Below, piece after piece: positions 50,101-59,100 of a stretch of 64,000 nucleotides of DNA. The DNA is from Escherichia coli (lineage in GTDB: Bacteria; Pseudomonadota; Gammaproteobacteria; Enterobacterales; Enterobacteriaceae), in assembly GCF_011045215.1 (NCBI RefSeq), contig NZ_CP049201.1; one strand, 5' to 3'. Made by a program: the position numbers. Each line of letters opens with the position of its first letter. Within the stretch, counting starts at the first letter, position 1.

Positions 50101-53100
50101 GCTAATTGAGCATTGACATCCGCTATATAATTTATATGATTACATTTTTTCTTACACTCATCATAATTTTCGATAGGATAAATTAATGGCCTTCCTTTGA
50201 TATCTCTCTCAAGCCCAAACCCGTATTTTTTTATTAAAACCATTTCATCCGCAGTCGATTGAAAGGAATAGAAAAATATAATATTTACGATTGTCATTAT
50301 TATGATTTTTTTTATAGCTTGCAGCATTAATATATTTCTCGACTTATTAGTTAATGGAGAAGTGCTTTTTCTAATTCCGCTATTTTTTTCTTAACTGAAT
50401 TGCTTAATATTTCATCATTAATCGAGTCTATCTCACTTTCAATTAATCTTATTTCAAAATATCTTTCTATGTTATATGCATTCTCAAATATTTGATCTTT
50501 TTGTTTAGAGATCAGTTTAGTTGCAATACGGATATGTTCGTCATATGAAACTTCATCCTCTTTGCACGTTGAATATTTATCAGTAGTTGTATAATTCTGT
50601 GACCACATACCACCTTTTTTATTATCCCCATAATACCACTGAATATGAGACATTTCATGACATAAAGTAGCAACATGAGAATCCTTTCCCGTTACTGGAT
50701 TTTTTTGCCATCTCTATACTCAAATTTTGCGCCTATGTTAATTATATAGGGCATATCCTTACTTGGGCTGACGAATGCTGCAAATTCATTACAACCTGTA
50801 TAATTTATAAAACTGCTCATTGTTAAATCATTAGCTATAATCATTAATCTTCTCACACCATCCATCATAAGAAATCTAGCATTCATGCGCCTAACTGTAT
50901 TATGTCCATATTTTCTTATATTAACTTCCTTATTTCCTTTAACACCAAAGATCTTACTGAAATCATATTCCTCCTGTGCTCCCCATCTCAAAAGATCATC
51001 TGCTCTTTTTATCAAAACCAACTTTTGTGCCTTACGAACCTTATCAATCATTATTTTAAAATGATCAGTTATTTTTTGCTCTTTCACACATTCTTCTGGC
51101 TCTGGCTTTGGTTGTCCAGAAGTTTGATTATTATCGTCCATAGTGTCCTTCCATTGAGAGAAAATCATCATTCGCAAATAGCAACTAAAAAGCAGCATTA
51201 CTTGACCTTTCCCTGCATAACAATATTTATAAAATAATACGTTTTATGATCTCACCTTGGGCTCCCAACAAGATAATTTCAGTTTTAAAGACTTTCACGA
51301 AAAAATATAGAAATACCTCACCACCCTTCACTTACCAATTAATCTCACAGGAAATCCAACTTCCTTACCACAAATACAATCCCAAGTAACATTTCCCAAA
51401 ATTTTTGATACTTTAGGCTGCAATGGCATTATTGACATTATAAATTTATCAAGTTCTTCGCTATATTTAATTCCCTTTATATTTCTTATTATTGATATTC
51501 TAGCAGTAAAGATAGCCGTCTCTCCATCTACACTAAAAGTGTAATTACAATTTTTTGTAATCTCATCAAATTCAACCGATAACAAATCAATATTATGGTT
51601 TGTAAACACTATGCCCATTCCATACCTCCTTAAATTCCTGTTCAGTCATCAGATATCGACTCCCTTGATATGGATCATATATTATCACATTCCCAGCATC
51701 ATCAACACCCTTAACAAGTACCCAATGTCCTACTTTACTTCCAGAATCCCACATCATTGCTCCCCATGAACCAGTATTACTGAGGGCATATAAACTAGAT
51801 TCGCTCACTGCATTCCCTTCCCAGCCGACATCAAATTTATTAAGCTTGTTTGCCAGCGACGTCATAGATGTTAATTCTGTTCCAATTACATTTTGCGTGA
51901 CAAAAATATACCTATCCCTAAGCAACATTTCCCCACAGGCCGCTCCACAGCCTGTTAAAGTCAATTGCTTTATTACATTTGAATCTAAAACCTCATCAAA
52001 TACTGTCCAATTGCCACCAGCACCACCTTCTAAAACTACCGGCTCTACAAATACTTTCCCAGAGATATTTTCTTCTGGTATTTTTGCGGGTATCATAAAG
52101 CCCCATAAAAAGCTGGAAAAATGCTCCAGAGCAATCTGATCACCATTATTTGCATCCATTATCATTTTTTTAAGTGCATCCCATGCTTGCCCATTTATCA
52201 ATGAATCACTAATATTAAATAAAGCCTGTTCTTTTTCGTTTAAATTTATATTTGCCTGTTCACATAACCCATCTTCGCCTATCGGGCAAGCAACCGTTGC
52301 CGTTGCCGTATCTAACAGAGCATCGAATGTAACTAAGGCTAAATCCGCCACACCATGTAAAGTGGTGATTGCTCCATTCCCCATTTGAGTAAGTGTGTTC
52401 TCTCCAAACCATTCTCTAATTTGAGATTTATCTCCTTCAATACCATTCCTGAGAGATTCTCTGATATTCTTTATTGAAAAAAACTCCCCCCATGATTGGT
52501 CAGGATCTTTTATTTGGAATAAATCATTTTTAACCTCAGGTGAAATATCTCCGTCAAAAATATTACCAACAGAGAGGAGATCCTTCAGAAGCAGTAAATC
52601 GTGTATTACTTCAGCAGTCCTTTCATAATTAAAACTTCTATCAATGACAGAAATCATTGGTGATTTTATTTTGGTATATAATTTACCAAGGCAGTTATGG
52701 TTATTAATCCCAACAACTGAACCATGATAAGCAACAGGTTTCCCTTCTATTGTTACAGTCGGACTTCCCGTTAAAATAACACAGTCACCCGTTCCTTGAG
52801 ATGTACCGGATATGACACCTTTACCGGCATTACTTTGAGTTCCAGCAATCACTGAACCAACATTTAAAGCTCTGCATCCACGCGCCCATACCGTTGAACT
52901 GTACTGTCTTTCACTATCTAAAGTCTGGTAACTGTCAAAAGGAACCTTGTAACCTCCTACTTCACATACATCTGGTGAAGTACACACGACTCTAAATCTA
53001 GATTCACCATCCCCGATATGATAGTTACCCATAATATTTTTTCCCTATACATTCAGGAATAATACAACTCAGCACTCCTTCTTTCATTCCAAAAAAATCA

Positions 53101-56100: not shown

Positions 56101-59100
56101 AAAGGTGTCCGGCTCCTGGCCGTCAACCTCCAGCGTAAAGCGCAGACCTTTTAAGGACATAAATACCTCTCAGACATATCAGCCTATATTTACCGTACCG
56201 CCACCAATGACCACGCCGCCGCAGTCAACAGCATCACCGCTTCTGGCGGCGGGCAGGCCGTCAATAAAGACGGTTGAAGAACCTCTGGCGATTTTACGGG
56301 GATGAGGGGGATGCTTCGGTTTAGCATGCGGCGTCAGCGGATCTCCCTGACGGGCTGCGGGGAGACCATCGATAAAAACGGTGGATGACCCGGCGGTGAT
56401 GACGGTCTCGTAATAACCGTCGTGCTGAGTGCCTTTGTCGGTGAGTTTGGCTGCTAAAGGCATAATTTCTCCTGTTCAGAATTTCTACAGCAGCAGGTTT
56501 CAAAAATCCGGAGAAATATTCAACGAAATATTAATCACTTCACCGGATATTCTGATACGTACCTTCACTGGTCTATTTAAGTAATACAAATTGTTGGCGT
56601 GTATTAAGTTCCATTTTGTTCTCCTTAATTATGTAAGGAGTATTTGATCATGTATAAGCAATAAAAACAGCTTCAGGAAATAAGGAATATCGCAATTTTT
56701 AAACATAAAATGCGAATCGTTCAATACAAAAAAGCAGCGTTGCGTAATCTTTCCCTGATTAAATACGCTACCGCCCTACCCTGATGACATGATCTGCACT
56801 GCACTATCATATCGACATGTTTCTCTACATGCGAAAAGATGTTTTATTTTCGGATTATATTAAATTGACATTTCATATAAAAAACGAAATTACATCAATC
56901 ATATAAATAATTGTACCAACTTTAATTACTATTCATAGCAAACAAATGGATATCCAGTTAACTACGCCAGTGATTCATTAACATTAACCTCCGGCATTAT
57001 TGTTAAATAATGACATTCCTTTTTAATACTTCTTGTAATTTCGGTAACTGACATACTGCATCAGCAATCGCACTGATATTCGTGGCATTATCCTGAAACC
57101 ATTCATGCCCAGGCCCCCATGTGCGCATAGTGCAAAGATAACAGTCCACCAGCGTTAGTTGCTCACCAAACGCATAAGGTTCAGCGGTCAATTGTGAATT
57201 CAGCCAGATATAAAGCGATTTACGATATTCAATAACATTCTTCTTTAACTGTTCAGGTGCGTCAGATGCCCAACGCTCAGGGTAATCGGCGAAAGTGAAT
57301 GTTGGATAGACATTAGCAACCAGCCAGACCAATAGCCGTTGAAACTGCTGACGTTCGGCGCGCCCAACCGGTGGCGCAAGGTCCGGGCGACGATCGAGAA
57401 CCATCAATGCAATCGCCGCTGTCTCCGTCATAATCTCGTCATTTTCCAGAGCCAGTGTCGGAACCTGACACAACGGGTTCAGGGTTTTCAATAACTCGCG
57501 TGAAGTTCCCTCGTGGTCAAAACCACTGACATCAACGAACTGATAAGGAATATCAGCTAGTGTTAGCATCAGCTCACTGATTGTAGAGCCCCATCCGGGT
57601 ACGCCATACACCTTAATCATATGCCCCTCACAATCTTTTAAAGATTAAGTGTAGGACAGTACACAGGTTAACCAGCAAAAGGATTTGTCATTTTTTCGTC
57701 AGTTGTATTGATCCCCTTCAGGATTGTAAGGGGATGTTTTGCATCGTTTATCGATAACGGGTAGGATGCTGCGCCGATAGTTTTATACCCATAAAGAATA
57801 ATGGTGATAACTATCATCGCCAGGATGAATAAACATTGTTCATGGCAACTTATATGACTTTTTCATTAAAGCAATCAGGGAGAGCAATGAGTAAACACGA
57901 CACCGACACTTCAGATCAACACGCCGCGAAACGCCGCTGGCTTAATGCCCACGAAGAGGGGTATCACAAAGCGATGGGCAATCGCCAGGTGCAGATGATC
58001 GCCATTGGCGGCGCGATTGGTACGGGTTTGTTTTTAGGCGCAGGAGCCCGACTGCAAATGGCGGGGCCAGCACTGGCATTGGTCTATTTGATCTGCGGCC
58101 TGTTTTCATTTTTTATTCTGCGTGCATTGGGTGAGCTGGTGTTACACCGCCCTTCCAGTGGCAGTTTTGTCTCTTATGCCCGCGAGTTTTTGGGTGAGAA
58201 AGCCGCTTATGTTGCGGGCTGGATGTACTTCATCAACTGGGCGATGACGGGGATTGTCGATATCACCGCCGTCGCTCTGTATATGCATTACTGGGGTGCG
58301 TTTGGCGGCGTGCCGCAGTGGGTCTTTGCGCTCGCTGCACTTACCATCGTTGGCACCATGAATATGATCGGTGTGAAATGGTTTGCGGAGATGGAGTTCT
58401 GGTTTGCGCTTATTAAAGTGCTCGCCATTGTGACCTTTTTGGTCGTGGGTACAGTGTTCCTCGGTAGTGGTCAGCCGCTGGATGGCAACACCACTGGCTT
58501 TCATTTAATCACCGATAATGGCGGCTTCTTCCCCCACGGTTTGCTGCCTGCGCTGGTGTTGATTCAGGGCGTAGTGTTTGCTTTTGCCTCCATTGAAATG
58601 GTGGGTACAGCTGCCGGAGAATGTAAAGATCCGCAGACCATGGTGCCTAAAGCCATTAACAGTGTGATTTGGCGTATTGGCCTGTTTTACGTCGGCTCCG
58701 TGGTGTTGCTGGTTATGTTATTGCCGTGGAGCGCGTATCAGGCGGGGCAAAGTCCGTTCGTGACGTTTTTCTCTAAACTGGGTGTGCCATATATCGGCAG
58801 CATTATGAACATTGTGGTGCTGACCGCTGCCCTCTCCAGCCTGAACTCAGGCCTGTACTGCACCGGGCGTATTCTGCGCTCGATGGCGATGGGCGGTTCC
58901 GCACCGAGTTTTATGGCGAAAATGAGTCGTCAGCATGTGCCGTATGCCGGGATTCTGGCGACACTGGTTGTGTATGTCGTCGGCGTATTCCTCAACTATC
59001 TGGTGCCGTCGCGCGTATTTGAGATTGTGTTGAACTTCGCGTCGCTGGGAATCATCGCTTCATGGGCGTTTATCATCGTGTGCCAGATGCGCCTGCGTAA

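What the first reader, a model, noticed from the sequence alone, without database searches (positions are those of the whole stretch)
51593..56463. Two PAAR-type tip domains in one vgrG island
A stand-alone PAAR protein (two GLPAAR motifs) sits upstream of vgrG, and the effector downstream carries its own PAAR-like N-terminal domain. Only one tip can cap a VgrG trimer, so either they compete, serve different spikes, or the stand-alone PAAR belongs to an older cargo layer.
Basis: inference. Interest (0 to 1): 0.5.

Follow-up and report, generated by a model that had tools for sequence, protein, structure and literature searches.

The report
Two spike caps from cassette swapping
This E. coli type VI secretion island does encode two alternative spike-tip caps, but it is an ordinary recombination mosaic: a known toxin cassette (Cpe1/Cpi1, with its own cap and chaperone) was spliced into an older PAAR-VgrG unit that already had a generic cap.

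Summary
On the minus strand the window encodes a canonical PAAR (56179-56463), VgrG (54178-56160), DUF2169 (53025-54071), and a 479-aa effector (51593-53032) with its immunity gene (51328-51618).

- **PAAR.** It is 89/93 identical to the crystallised E. coli PAAR c1882 (PDB 4JIW).
- **Effector.** It is Cpe1, the published GyrB/ParE-cleaving cysteine protease; its toxin domain is 100% identical to PDB 9L5U.

The doubling is a mosaic. At this chromosomal site (the classical RhsE site), UTI89 and CFT073 carry PAAR-vgrG(801 aa)-M35 peptidase-immunity. In the window, 3.3 kb (VgrG residues ~556-660, DUF2169, cpe1, cpi1; 37% GC) has replaced the old vgrG 3' end. It leaves a 55-bp vgrG scar, a frameshifted M35 gene and its presumed immunity gene downstream.

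The cassette does not need an adjacent PAAR:

- 212 of 299 E. coli genomes with the cassette have hcp-vgrG-DUF2169-cpe1 and no adjacent PAAR.
- One of these is ATCC 11775, the strain in which Cpe1 killing was shown.
- Five relatives from other genera have the same PAAR-less layout.

Which cap wins on this VgrG is untested. The system is already known; interest is low to moderate.

The parts
56179..56463 (-). Stand-alone canonical PAAR protein (94 aa; identical to RefSeq WP_001127492.1). It is the generic spike cap and part of the constant, GC-rich head.
   Evidence: NF033420 at 156.5 bits. PF05488 E 7e-21. 89/93 identical to PDB 4JIW chain D. Two GLPAAR motifs; GC 0.575. pN/pS 0.13 among 11 alleles.
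54498..56160 (-). Constant part of vgrG (residues 1 to ~555; gp27/gp5 core), shared with VgrGs that carry other cargo.
54178..54470 (-). Cassette-specific 3' end of vgrG (residues ~556-660). It is a beta-helix end with no C-terminal extension and finishes ...VDIKGKDIHLNG.
   Evidence: Identity to other VgrG types drops to 0-57% after residue 540 but stays 97-100% to IHE3034. GC 0.41. C-terminal alignment.
53025..54071 (-). DUF2169 (TvpA) accessory protein, the chaperone of the PIPY domain.
   Evidence: Pfam DUF2169 E 1.7e-72. 3 aa differences from the IHE3034 protein. Function taken from PMC11883445 and PMC13373197.
51593..53032 (-). Cpe1 effector, 479 aa. PIPY/DUF4150 cap domain at residues 15-115 (nt 52688-52990); papain-like cysteine protease toxin at residues 337-479 (nt 51596-52024), with catalytic Cys362.
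51328..51618 (-). Cpi1 immunity protein (96 aa). It overlaps the cpe1 3' end by 26 nt.
   Evidence: 1 aa difference from WP_000513317.1, the Cpi1 of ATCC 11775. RefSeq annotates it as Cpi1.
51187..54470 (-). The swapped-in cassette as a whole (VgrG tip, DUF2169, cpe1, cpi1 and 141 bp of 3' tail), 37% GC.
   Evidence: Window 51184-56169 is 97% identical to the IHE3034 main-cluster module. UTI89 homology stops at 51186 and resumes at 54471. The junction is seen base by base.
51131..51186 (-). Scar: the last ~55 bp of the older 801-codon vgrG, still attached to the M35 gene start.
   Evidence: Window 49449-51186 aligns with UTI89 L010 4897-6632, while the UTI89 vgrG CDS ends at 6577.
50351..51141 (-). 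Older cargo: M35-like metallopeptidase effector gene, inactivated by a -1 frameshift in an A8 tract (A7 at 50697-50712) just upstream of the HExxH motif.
   Evidence: The two ORF pieces are 98% identical to the UTI89 M35 protein at residues 1-147 and 164-253. A7 versus A8 alignment. Weak Aspzincin_M35 hit.
49668..50327 (-). 219-aa signal-peptide protein, presumed immunity partner of the M35 effector. It is C-terminally shortened relative to the 261-aa UTI89 protein.
   Evidence: 99.5% identity over 219 aa to the UTI89 hypothetical protein downstream of M35. The immunity role is an inference from position.
48988..49433 (-). ISAs1 (H-repeat) transposase 3' fragment closing the island on the pptA side.
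   Evidence: NF033564 E 2e-29. 92-98% nt identity to ISAs1 copies in other loci.
56604..56757 (.). 155-bp sequence resembling the 5' end of ISAs1/ISEc1, upstream of the PAAR gene.
   Evidence: 85-92% identity to the region just upstream of ISAs1 transposase genes in L001, L003 and L004.

Best explanation
The island is a recombination mosaic built from known parts.

**Older unit (shown).** The classical RhsE site between pptA and yncG held PAAR - vgrG(801 aa) - M35 peptidase - immunity, as UTI89 and CFT073 still do. There the stand-alone PAAR is the only cap.

**Replacement (shown).** Homologous recombination within the conserved first ~1.66 kb of vgrG replaced the old vgrG 3' end with a 3.3-kb AT-rich cassette. 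That cassette normally sits right after hcp in the E. coli T6SS main cluster. It encodes a new VgrG beta-helix end, the DUF2169 chaperone, Cpe1 with its own PIPY/DUF4150 cap domain, and Cpi1. The displaced M35 gene and its presumed immunity gene became orphans.

**Mechanism (inferred from the published DUF2169/PIPY and Cpe1 work).** DUF2169 shields the hydrophobic face of the PIPY domain and helps it dock on the blunt end of the VgrG trimer. The spike is fired. Cpe1's papain-like protease cleaves GyrB and ParE in the target cell. Cpi1 protects the producer.

**Role of the stand-alone PAAR (inferred).** It is not part of the Cpe1 delivery module and is not needed next to it. It is the generic cap inherited with the constant PAAR-vgrG head. 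It most likely caps VgrG trimers that are not loaded with Cpe1, or trimers of other VgrG paralogues. The two caps are therefore alternatives, never on the same trimer.
For: **Identity of the parts.**

**Breakpoints.**
- UTI89 homology covers window 49449-51186 (98.8%) and 54471-58000 (93.6%).
- IHE3034 homology covers 51184-56169 (97%).
- The junction is visible base by base.
- GC is 0.58 for PAAR plus the vgrG core, against 0.37 for the cassette.
- 26 of the 27 VgrG differences from IHE3034 lie in residues 1-532.

**Older layer.** UTI89 and CFT073 carry PAAR-vgrG801-M35 at the same site. The window's M35 pieces are 98% identical to the UTI89 gene but frameshifted.

**The PAAR is not cargo-specific.** The identical protein WP_001127502.1 precedes a cpe1-type vgrG in AHB7 and an M35-type vgrG in CFT073.

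**The PAAR is dispensable next to the cassette.**
- 299 of 5426 complete E. coli genomes carry the cassette.
- 212 of them have hcp-vgrG-DUF2169 contiguous with no PAAR.
- These include ATCC 11775, the strain in which Cpe1-dependent killing was demonstrated (PMC12136450).
- The whole IHE3034 main cluster has no annotated PAAR gene.
- Five non-E. coli relatives (Citrobacter, two Rahnella, Providencia, Proteus) all have hcp-vgrG-DUF2169-PIPY effector with no PAAR.

**Literature.** DUF2169 is required for PIPY-VgrG spike formation and is rarely found near PAAR genes (PMC11883445). A Class I Tvp system is VgrG-TvpA-PAAR-like effector (PMC13373197).
Against: - No experiment or complex model here shows which cap sits on this VgrG.
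- The PAAR gene is intact and under purifying selection (pN/pS 0.13). It is only 18 nt from vgrG, so it is probably co-expressed and may matter for this spike.
- The terminal strand motif of this VgrG resembles that of PAAR-using VgrGs, so PAAR binding to it is plausible.
- Genomes that lack an adjacent PAAR show a second match to the module query elsewhere, probably another vgrG unit that may carry a PAAR (2 places per record). Genome-wide independence from PAAR is therefore not shown.
- Whether the window's strain has a T6SS core cluster at all is unknown.
- The direction of the swap is inferred from the scar and the orphan genes, not dated.
Confidence: 0.75

Rival explanations
1. Competition in cis. 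Both caps can bind the same VgrG660 trimer. Strains with the adjacent PAAR then fire a mixture of Cpe1-loaded and 'blank' PAAR-capped spikes. This would lower Cpe1 dosage but keep the machine firing, for example for Hcp-borne effectors.
For: PAAR and vgrG are 18 nt apart and probably co-transcribed. The last beta-strand motif of VgrG660 (VDIKGKDIHLNG) is close to that of the DUF4123-type and M35-type VgrGs (VDIKGAKINLNG, VDIVGPKISLNS). c1882 was crystallised on a generic gp5-based beta-helix (4JIW), which suggests low tip specificity. The PAAR is under purifying selection.
Against: There are no binding data. In Agrobacterium the canonical PAAR and the DUF4150 effector use different VgrGs (PMC6945064). 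The DUF2169 chaperone may give PIPY an advantage on its cognate VgrG. This reading is compatible with the mosaic origin rather than an alternative to it.
Confidence: 0.3
2. Cooperation. The stand-alone PAAR is needed for Cpe1 delivery, for example by capping the tip while PIPY-DUF2169 docks elsewhere on VgrG, so the pair is a designed two-component tip.
For: Only the adjacency and intactness of both genes.
Against: 71% of cassette-bearing E. coli genomes, the experimentally used ATCC 11775, and all five relatives from other genera lack an adjacent PAAR. PIPY has the same fold as PAAR and so the same predicted docking site (PMC11883445). The same PAAR protein serves other cargo types.
Confidence: 0.04
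3. Relic. In the strain that gave this window the island is not in use, either because there is no T6SS core or because the island is silenced. The two caps would then be leftovers with no current interplay.
For: The closest same-site relatives are decayed: a 2.6-kb deletion in O145 strain 95-3192, an IS600 insertion plus deletion in 2018-05-2CC, and a frameshifted VgrG end with a truncated effector in A30. The M35 gene is frameshifted here. The T6SS in ATCC 11775 needed an hns deletion to be active (PMC12136450).
Against: All five genes are full length here and nearly identical to functional alleles: 6, 1 and 3 aa differences for Cpe1, Cpi1 and DUF2169, and the toxin domain is 100% identical to 9L5U.
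Confidence: 0.2

Closest known systems
Cpe1/Cpi1 (= TsaP) locus of E. coli ATCC 11775, RS218 and IHE3034: hcp-vgrG-DUF2169-cpe1-cpi1 at the end of the T6SS main cluster (PMC12136450, PMC10434152)
   Same: The same VgrG tip, DUF2169, Cpe1 (6 aa differences; toxin domain identical to PDB 9L5U; Cys362 present) and Cpi1 (1 aa difference). 97% nt identity over 5 kb.
   Different: In those strains hcp lies directly upstream of vgrG and no PAAR gene is adjacent. Here the cassette sits at the RhsE site behind a PAAR gene and a vgrG core of different ancestry (26 of 27 VgrG substitutions lie in residues 1-532).
PAAR-VgrG units at the E. coli RhsE site: UTI89 PAAR-vgrG801-M35, and CFT073 c1882 (PDB 4JIW)-vgrG-DUF4123-effector followed by PAAR-vgrG801-M35
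   Same: The same chromosomal site and flanks (yddH/pptA ... yncG/ansP), the same PAAR (2-4 aa differences), the same vgrG core, and the same M35 gene, presumed immunity gene and ISAs1 fragment downstream.
   Different: The cargo in those units has no cap domain of its own. Those VgrGs carry C-terminal extensions beyond the ...LNG end (34 aa, or ~170 aa including a folded domain), which the window's VgrG lacks.
Agrobacterium tumefaciens C58 VgrG2-Atu3641(DUF2169)-Tde2(DUF4150)-Tdi2: Class I Tvp system, or synteny type B (PMC13373197, PMC11883445, PMC6945064)
   Same: The minimal architecture: vgrG, a single-domain DUF2169, and an effector with an N-terminal DUF4150 domain followed by immunity. 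There are no DUF6484, DUF3540 or pentapeptide-repeat accessory genes.
   Different: The toxin differs (DNase versus cysteine protease). In Agrobacterium the canonical PAAR is encoded with the other VgrG module, not in the same operon.
Orphan toxin/immunity arrays of Rhs and CDI loci (displacement of older C-terminal tips by recombination in a conserved core)
   Same: A GC-rich conserved 5' core, AT-rich variable 3' cassettes, and displaced older toxin/immunity genes left downstream, with ISAs1/H-repeat fragments at the end.
   Different: The conserved core here is PAAR plus the vgrG 5' part rather than an rhs or cdiA core. The swapped unit also includes a chaperone and a second cap domain.

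Membership tests
Canonical T6SS PAAR protein (Pfam PF05488; NCBIfam NF033420) | Full-length match above the curated cut-off, with PAAR repeat motifs | tested here: met
   156.5 bits against a cut-off of 124, residues 1-94 of 94. PF05488 E 7e-21. GLPAAR at residues 33 and 69.
Canonical T6SS PAAR protein (Pfam PF05488; NCBIfam NF033420) | Conserved His/Cys set of the zinc site near the cone vertex | tested here: met
   H14, H46, H54 and C81 are invariant in a 15-sequence alignment spanning 62-88% identity. Their role as zinc ligands comes from knowledge of 4JIV/4JIW and was not measured here.
Canonical T6SS PAAR protein (Pfam PF05488; NCBIfam NF033420) | Binds the blunt end of the VgrG beta-helix | not testable with these tools
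   Inferred from 89/93 identity to 4JIW chain D, which was crystallised on a VgrG-like beta-helix.
DUF4150 / Tox-PAAR-like / 'PIPY' domain (Pfam PF13665) | Profile match over the whole domain at the N-terminus of a toxin | tested here: met
   E 8.2e-12, model positions 2-107 of 108, residues 15-115. 231 representative homologues, many fused to long C-terminal regions.
DUF4150 / Tox-PAAR-like / 'PIPY' domain (Pfam PF13665) | PAAR-like conical beta fold | tested here: met
DUF4150 / Tox-PAAR-like / 'PIPY' domain (Pfam PF13665) | No PAAR motif; P(I/V)P(Y/F) motif instead | tested here: inconclusive
   There is no 'PAAR' string. The motif position reads K-V-P-F (residues 29-32). The family consensus here is V-V-P-F, with F32 >=90% conserved and the first position variable. 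The V-P-F part is present; the first proline is not.
DUF4150 / Tox-PAAR-like / 'PIPY' domain (Pfam PF13665) | Cognate DUF2169 gene adjacent | tested here: met
   DUF2169 (E 1.7e-72) lies immediately upstream and overlaps cpe1 by 8 nt.
Class I Tvp system / DUF2169 synteny type B | vgrG, single-domain DUF2169 and PIPY effector in a row, without DUF6484, DUF3540, pentapeptide-repeat or thiolase-like genes | tested here: met
   The gene order leaves no room for further genes. DUF2169 is 348 aa with a single domain at residues 27-320. Class definitions are from PMC13373197 and PMC11883445.
Cpe1/Cpi1 papain-like cysteine protease effector-immunity pair | Toxin domain with the catalytic Cys (C362) and a cognate immunity gene directly downstream | tested here: met
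   Residues 337-479 are 100% identical to 9L5U chain A. C362 is present. Cpi1 differs at 1 of 96 residues from WP_000513317.1.
Cpe1/Cpi1 papain-like cysteine protease effector-immunity pair | Cleaves GyrB and ParE; delivered by the T6SS | not testable with these tools
   Shown for the ATCC 11775 protein in PMC12136450; inferred here from near-identity.
VgrG / TssI spike | gp27/gp5-like core | tested here: met
   TIGR03361 E 1.4e-180, residues 8-519.

The most novel reading that the evidence does not exclude
E. coli may offer a natural with/without experiment on cap choice. About 87 genomes have a canonical PAAR immediately upstream of the Cpe1-type vgrG, and 212 do not. If the PAAR can occupy the conserved ...VDIKGxxIxLNG end of this VgrG, it would compete with DUF2169-PIPY-Cpe1. 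It would then set the ratio of toxin-loaded to blank spikes, a dosage control created by cassette shuffling. A further step is that the PAAR-vgrG head itself serves as the recombination arm that moves cap-bearing cassettes between the main cluster and the RhsE site.
Probability: 0.2. Interest if true: 0.45.

Novelty: already known. Interest (0 to 1): 0.25.

Why it matters
There is little new biology here. Every part is a known, and mostly a characterised, protein, and RefSeq already annotates this arrangement in dozens of genomes.

The value is in the explanation. An apparent paradox, two caps for one spike, dissolves into cassette replacement inside vgrG, and the displaced older cargo is still readable downstream.

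It also identifies a usable natural contrast. The same VgrG tip, DUF2169 and Cpe1 occur with an adjacent canonical PAAR (~87 genomes) and without one (212 genomes). This could be used to test whether canonical PAAR and chaperone-dependent PIPY caps compete for one VgrG. The DUF2169/PIPY papers I read (PMC11883445, PMC13373197) do not address that question.

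Tried and rejected
- **NCBIfam scan.** It gave nothing for DUF2169, Cpe1, Cpi1 or the downstream ORFs. 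Pfam and RefSeq annotation were needed instead.
- **The search for homologous proteins on the Cpe1 N-terminus.** It returned only 9 mostly fragmentary hits, useless for an alignment. The representative search replaced it.
- **The search for related loci.** The 10-sequence alignment found only 9 loci, 5 of them with enough upstream DNA. The cross-genus survey is therefore small. It also used a PAAR HMM built from the enterobacterial 94-aa family, which could miss very divergent PAARs. I therefore read the ORFs upstream of vgrG directly: they are hcp, tssB and tssC.
- **Promoter/terminator scan.** Uninformative.
- **PAAR as the last gene of a preceding module.** At the yafV site the PAAR follows a DUF4123-effector-immunity module, so I considered this reading. 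In the window and in UTI89 the PAAR is the first gene after yncG, with nothing preceding it, so it does not apply here.
- **Counting PAAR-type arrangements directly.** The 80%-coverage counter cannot separate them. I counted the hcp-type instead (212) and subtracted from 299. An independent spread sample gave 5 of 17, or 29%.
- **No complex prediction was possible.** VgrG trimer plus PAAR or PIPY-DUF2169 cannot be modelled with the tools available.

Full report
**What is there.** Window 49.4-56.8 kb is a low-GC island on the minus strand between pptA/yddH and yncG/ansP/yncE. This is the classical RhsE site of E. coli. In the direction of transcription the gene order is:

| Gene | Coordinates | Size |
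|---|---|---|
| PAAR | 56179-56463 | 94 aa |
| vgrG (18 nt downstream of PAAR) | 54178-56160 | 660 aa |
| DUF2169 | 53025-54071 | 348 aa |
| effector (overlaps DUF2169 by 8 nt) | 51593-53032 | 479 aa |
| immunity (overlaps effector by 26 nt) | 51328-51618 | 96 aa |
| two fragments of an M35-like peptidase gene | 50351-51198 | - |
| signal-peptide ORF | 49668-50327 | 219 aa |
| ISAs1 fragment | 48988-49433 | - |

- *Stand-alone PAAR.* It matches NCBIfam NF033420 over its full length (156.5 bits, cut-off 124) and Pfam PAAR_motif (E 7e-21). It has two GLPAAR motifs. It is 89/93 identical to PDB 4JIW chain D, the E. coli CFT073 PAAR c1882 crystallised on a VgrG-like beta-helix.
- *Effector N-terminus.* Residues 15-115 match Pfam Tox-PAAR-like/DUF4150 over the whole model (E 8.2e-12).
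- *Homology to PAAR.* A profile of 51 homologues aligns to a PAAR profile at 91.5% probability.

**What the effector is.** Residues 337-479 are 100% identical to PDB 9L5U. RefSeq annotates close relatives as Cpe1 and Cpi1. The protein differs at 6 of 479 residues from WP_000528852.1, the Cpe1 of ATCC 11775. Cpi1 differs at 1 of 96 residues. Cpe1 is a papain-like cysteine protease that cleaves GyrB and ParE; Cys362 is present here (PMC12136450). The same protein was earlier called TsaP in RS218 (PMC10434152).

**What kind of second cap this is.**
- The domain has no PAAR motif, and its motif position reads KVPF.
- DUF4150 domains were recently renamed PIPY domains.
- Unlike canonical PAAR, they need a cognate DUF2169 chaperone to form a spike with VgrG (PMC11883445).
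- The vgrG-DUF2169-PIPY effector layout without further accessory genes is synteny type B, or a Class I Tvp system (PMC11883445, PMC13373197).
- The gene between vgrG and cpe1 is a single-domain DUF2169 (E 1.7e-72).
- PMC11883445 also reports that DUF2169 genes are rarely found near canonical PAAR genes, so the doubling is unusual for this family.

**Why both caps are here: a mosaic.** Composition splits the locus. PAAR and vgrG codons 1 to ~555 are 58% GC, while the rest is 28-41% GC. Comparison with annotated E. coli genomes locates the breakpoints:

- *UTI89, same site.* UTI89 has PAAR-vgrG(801 aa)-M35 peptidase-hypothetical-ISAs1 fragment. Window 54471-58000 aligns with it at 93.6% and window 49449-51186 at 98.8%.
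- *The replaced segment.* The 660 bp between these blocks in UTI89 (the vgrG801 3' part) is replaced in the window by 3284 bp, 51187-54470.
- *Source of the new segment.* It is 97% identical to the module that follows hcp in the T6SS main cluster of IHE3034; the homology covers window 51184-56169.
- *The junction.* A base-level alignment shows the switch from IHE3034-like to UTI89-like sequence at 51186/51187. The last ~55 bp of the old vgrG remain attached to the M35 start codon.
- *Protein level.* VgrG is 90-100% identical to all compared VgrGs up to residue ~500-555. Beyond that it matches only the Cpe1-type VgrGs. Of its 27 differences from the IHE3034 VgrG, 26 lie in residues 1-532.
- *Older cargo.* The M35 gene is 98% identical to UTI89's but carries a -1 frameshift in an A8 tract just before the HExxH motif. 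The 219-aa ORF is 99.5% identical to the gene following M35 in UTI89.

The older unit was therefore PAAR-vgrG801-M35-immunity, with the stand-alone PAAR as its only cap. The Cpe1 cassette, with its own VgrG end, chaperone and cap, was recombined in. The old cargo was pushed downstream as orphans.

**The PAAR is generic, and the cassette does not need it nearby.**
- *One PAAR, several cargo types.* The identical PAAR protein WP_001127502.1 precedes a Cpe1-type vgrG in strain AHB7 and an M35-type vgrG in CFT073. CFT073 has two PAAR-vgrG units in tandem whose cargo has no cap of its own: a DUF4123-type effector and M35.
- *Counts in E. coli.* Of 5426 complete genomes, 688 carry this PAAR and 299 carry at least 80% of the cpi1-to-PAAR block.
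- *Cassette without PAAR.* 212 genomes have hcp-vgrG(Cpe1 type)-DUF2169 contiguous, that is, no PAAR upstream. This leaves about 87 (29%) with the PAAR, which agrees with 5 of 17 in a spread sample.
- *The tested strain.* ATCC 11775, in which Cpe1-dependent killing was demonstrated, has the PAAR-less arrangement (PMC12136450).
- *Main cluster.* The IHE3034 main cluster has no annotated PAAR gene at all.
- *Other genera.* Five PIPY-effector loci with enough upstream sequence (Citrobacter youngae, two Rahnella, Providencia alcalifaciens, Proteus cibi) all read tssC/tssB-hcp-vgrG-DUF2169-PIPY effector with no PAAR.

**What remains open.**
- The PAAR alleles are intact in every context examined, with pN/pS 0.13.
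- The PAAR gene here is probably co-transcribed with vgrG.
- The extreme end of this VgrG (…GPVDIKGKDIHLNG, with no C-terminal extension) resembles the corresponding strand of the other VgrG types (…GGVDIKGAKINLNG…, …GGVDIVGPKISLNS…). Canonical PAAR could therefore plausibly bind it and compete with PIPY.
- The Agrobacterium precedent has canonical PAAR on VgrG1 and the DUF4150 effector on VgrG2 (PMC6945064). That favours 'different spikes', but nothing here tests it.
- PAAR-less cassette genomes show a second match to the module query elsewhere, probably another vgrG unit (2 places per record). Genome-wide independence from PAAR is therefore not shown.
- I could not tell whether the window's strain has a T6SS core. 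Its closest same-site relatives are decayed: a 2.6-kb deletion in an O145 strain, IS600 in 2018-05-2CC, and a frameshifted VgrG end in A30. All five genes are intact in the window.

**Verdict.** The other two concern function and remain untested. The system is the published Cpe1/Cpi1 module on a published PAAR-VgrG head. It is already known, and interest is low to moderate.

Noticed in passing
window 50351-51198 (A-tract at 50697-50712): An orphan M35-like metallopeptidase effector gene is split by a -1 frameshift in an A8 homopolymer. The window and O145 strain 95-3192 have A7; UTI89 and 2018-05-2CC have A8. The break lies just upstream of the HExxH motif. It could be real decay, slippage-prone variation, or an assembly error.
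   Followed up: partly
window 49668-50327: A 219-aa ORF with an N-terminal signal peptide is 99.5% identical to the gene following M35 in UTI89 (261 aa there). It is probably the periplasmic immunity protein of the M35 effector, kept although the toxin gene is broken.
   Followed up: partly
window 48988-49433 and 56604-56757: The island is bracketed by ISAs1 (H-repeat) pieces: a 3' transposase fragment on the pptA side and a 155-bp sequence resembling the IS 5' end upstream of PAAR. ISAs1 copies also follow the Cpe1 cassette at the yafV site. They may serve as the second recombination arm.
   Followed up: partly
L006 (E. coli 95-3192, O145) 6001-8544; also H49: A deletion derivative of exactly this arrangement. 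Window 52094-54687 is missing, leaving PAAR, a truncated vgrG, a 111-aa C39 toxin fragment and an intact cpi1. In effect it is an orphan immunity gene at the RhsE site of an EHEC lineage.
   Followed up: partly
L009 (E. coli A30, baboon) 2893-9297: At the same site, A30 has PAAR-vgrG-DUF2169 plus the first 317 residues of Cpe1 followed by a different, short C-terminus (331 aa in total). Its VgrG is altered in the last ~30 residues (apparent frameshift). Further downstream are a vgrG fragment and an M23 peptidase gene, which looks like another cargo layer.
   Followed up: partly
L005 (CFT073) and L010 (UTI89) vgrG 801-aa genes: The M35-type VgrG continues past the ...SLNSGGSPG end with an acidic Gly/Asp/Glu-rich linker and a ~90-aa C-terminal domain. 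The DUF4123-type VgrG has a 34-aa tail. The Cpe1-type VgrG stops at ...HLNG. The presence or absence of a C-terminal extension thus tracks how the cargo is attached.
   Followed up: no
L011, L014, L016, L018 (Citrobacter, Providencia, Proteus): In relatives from other genera the PIPY domain heads very long proteins (stop-to-stop ORFs of 1514-1654 aa), not a ~480-aa protease effector.
   Followed up: no
one search hit list: Some database records name the 94-aa PAAR orthologues 'uropathogenic specific protein' (Trabulsiella, Buttiauxella). This looks like an old annotation label carried over to a T6SS structural protein.
   Followed up: no
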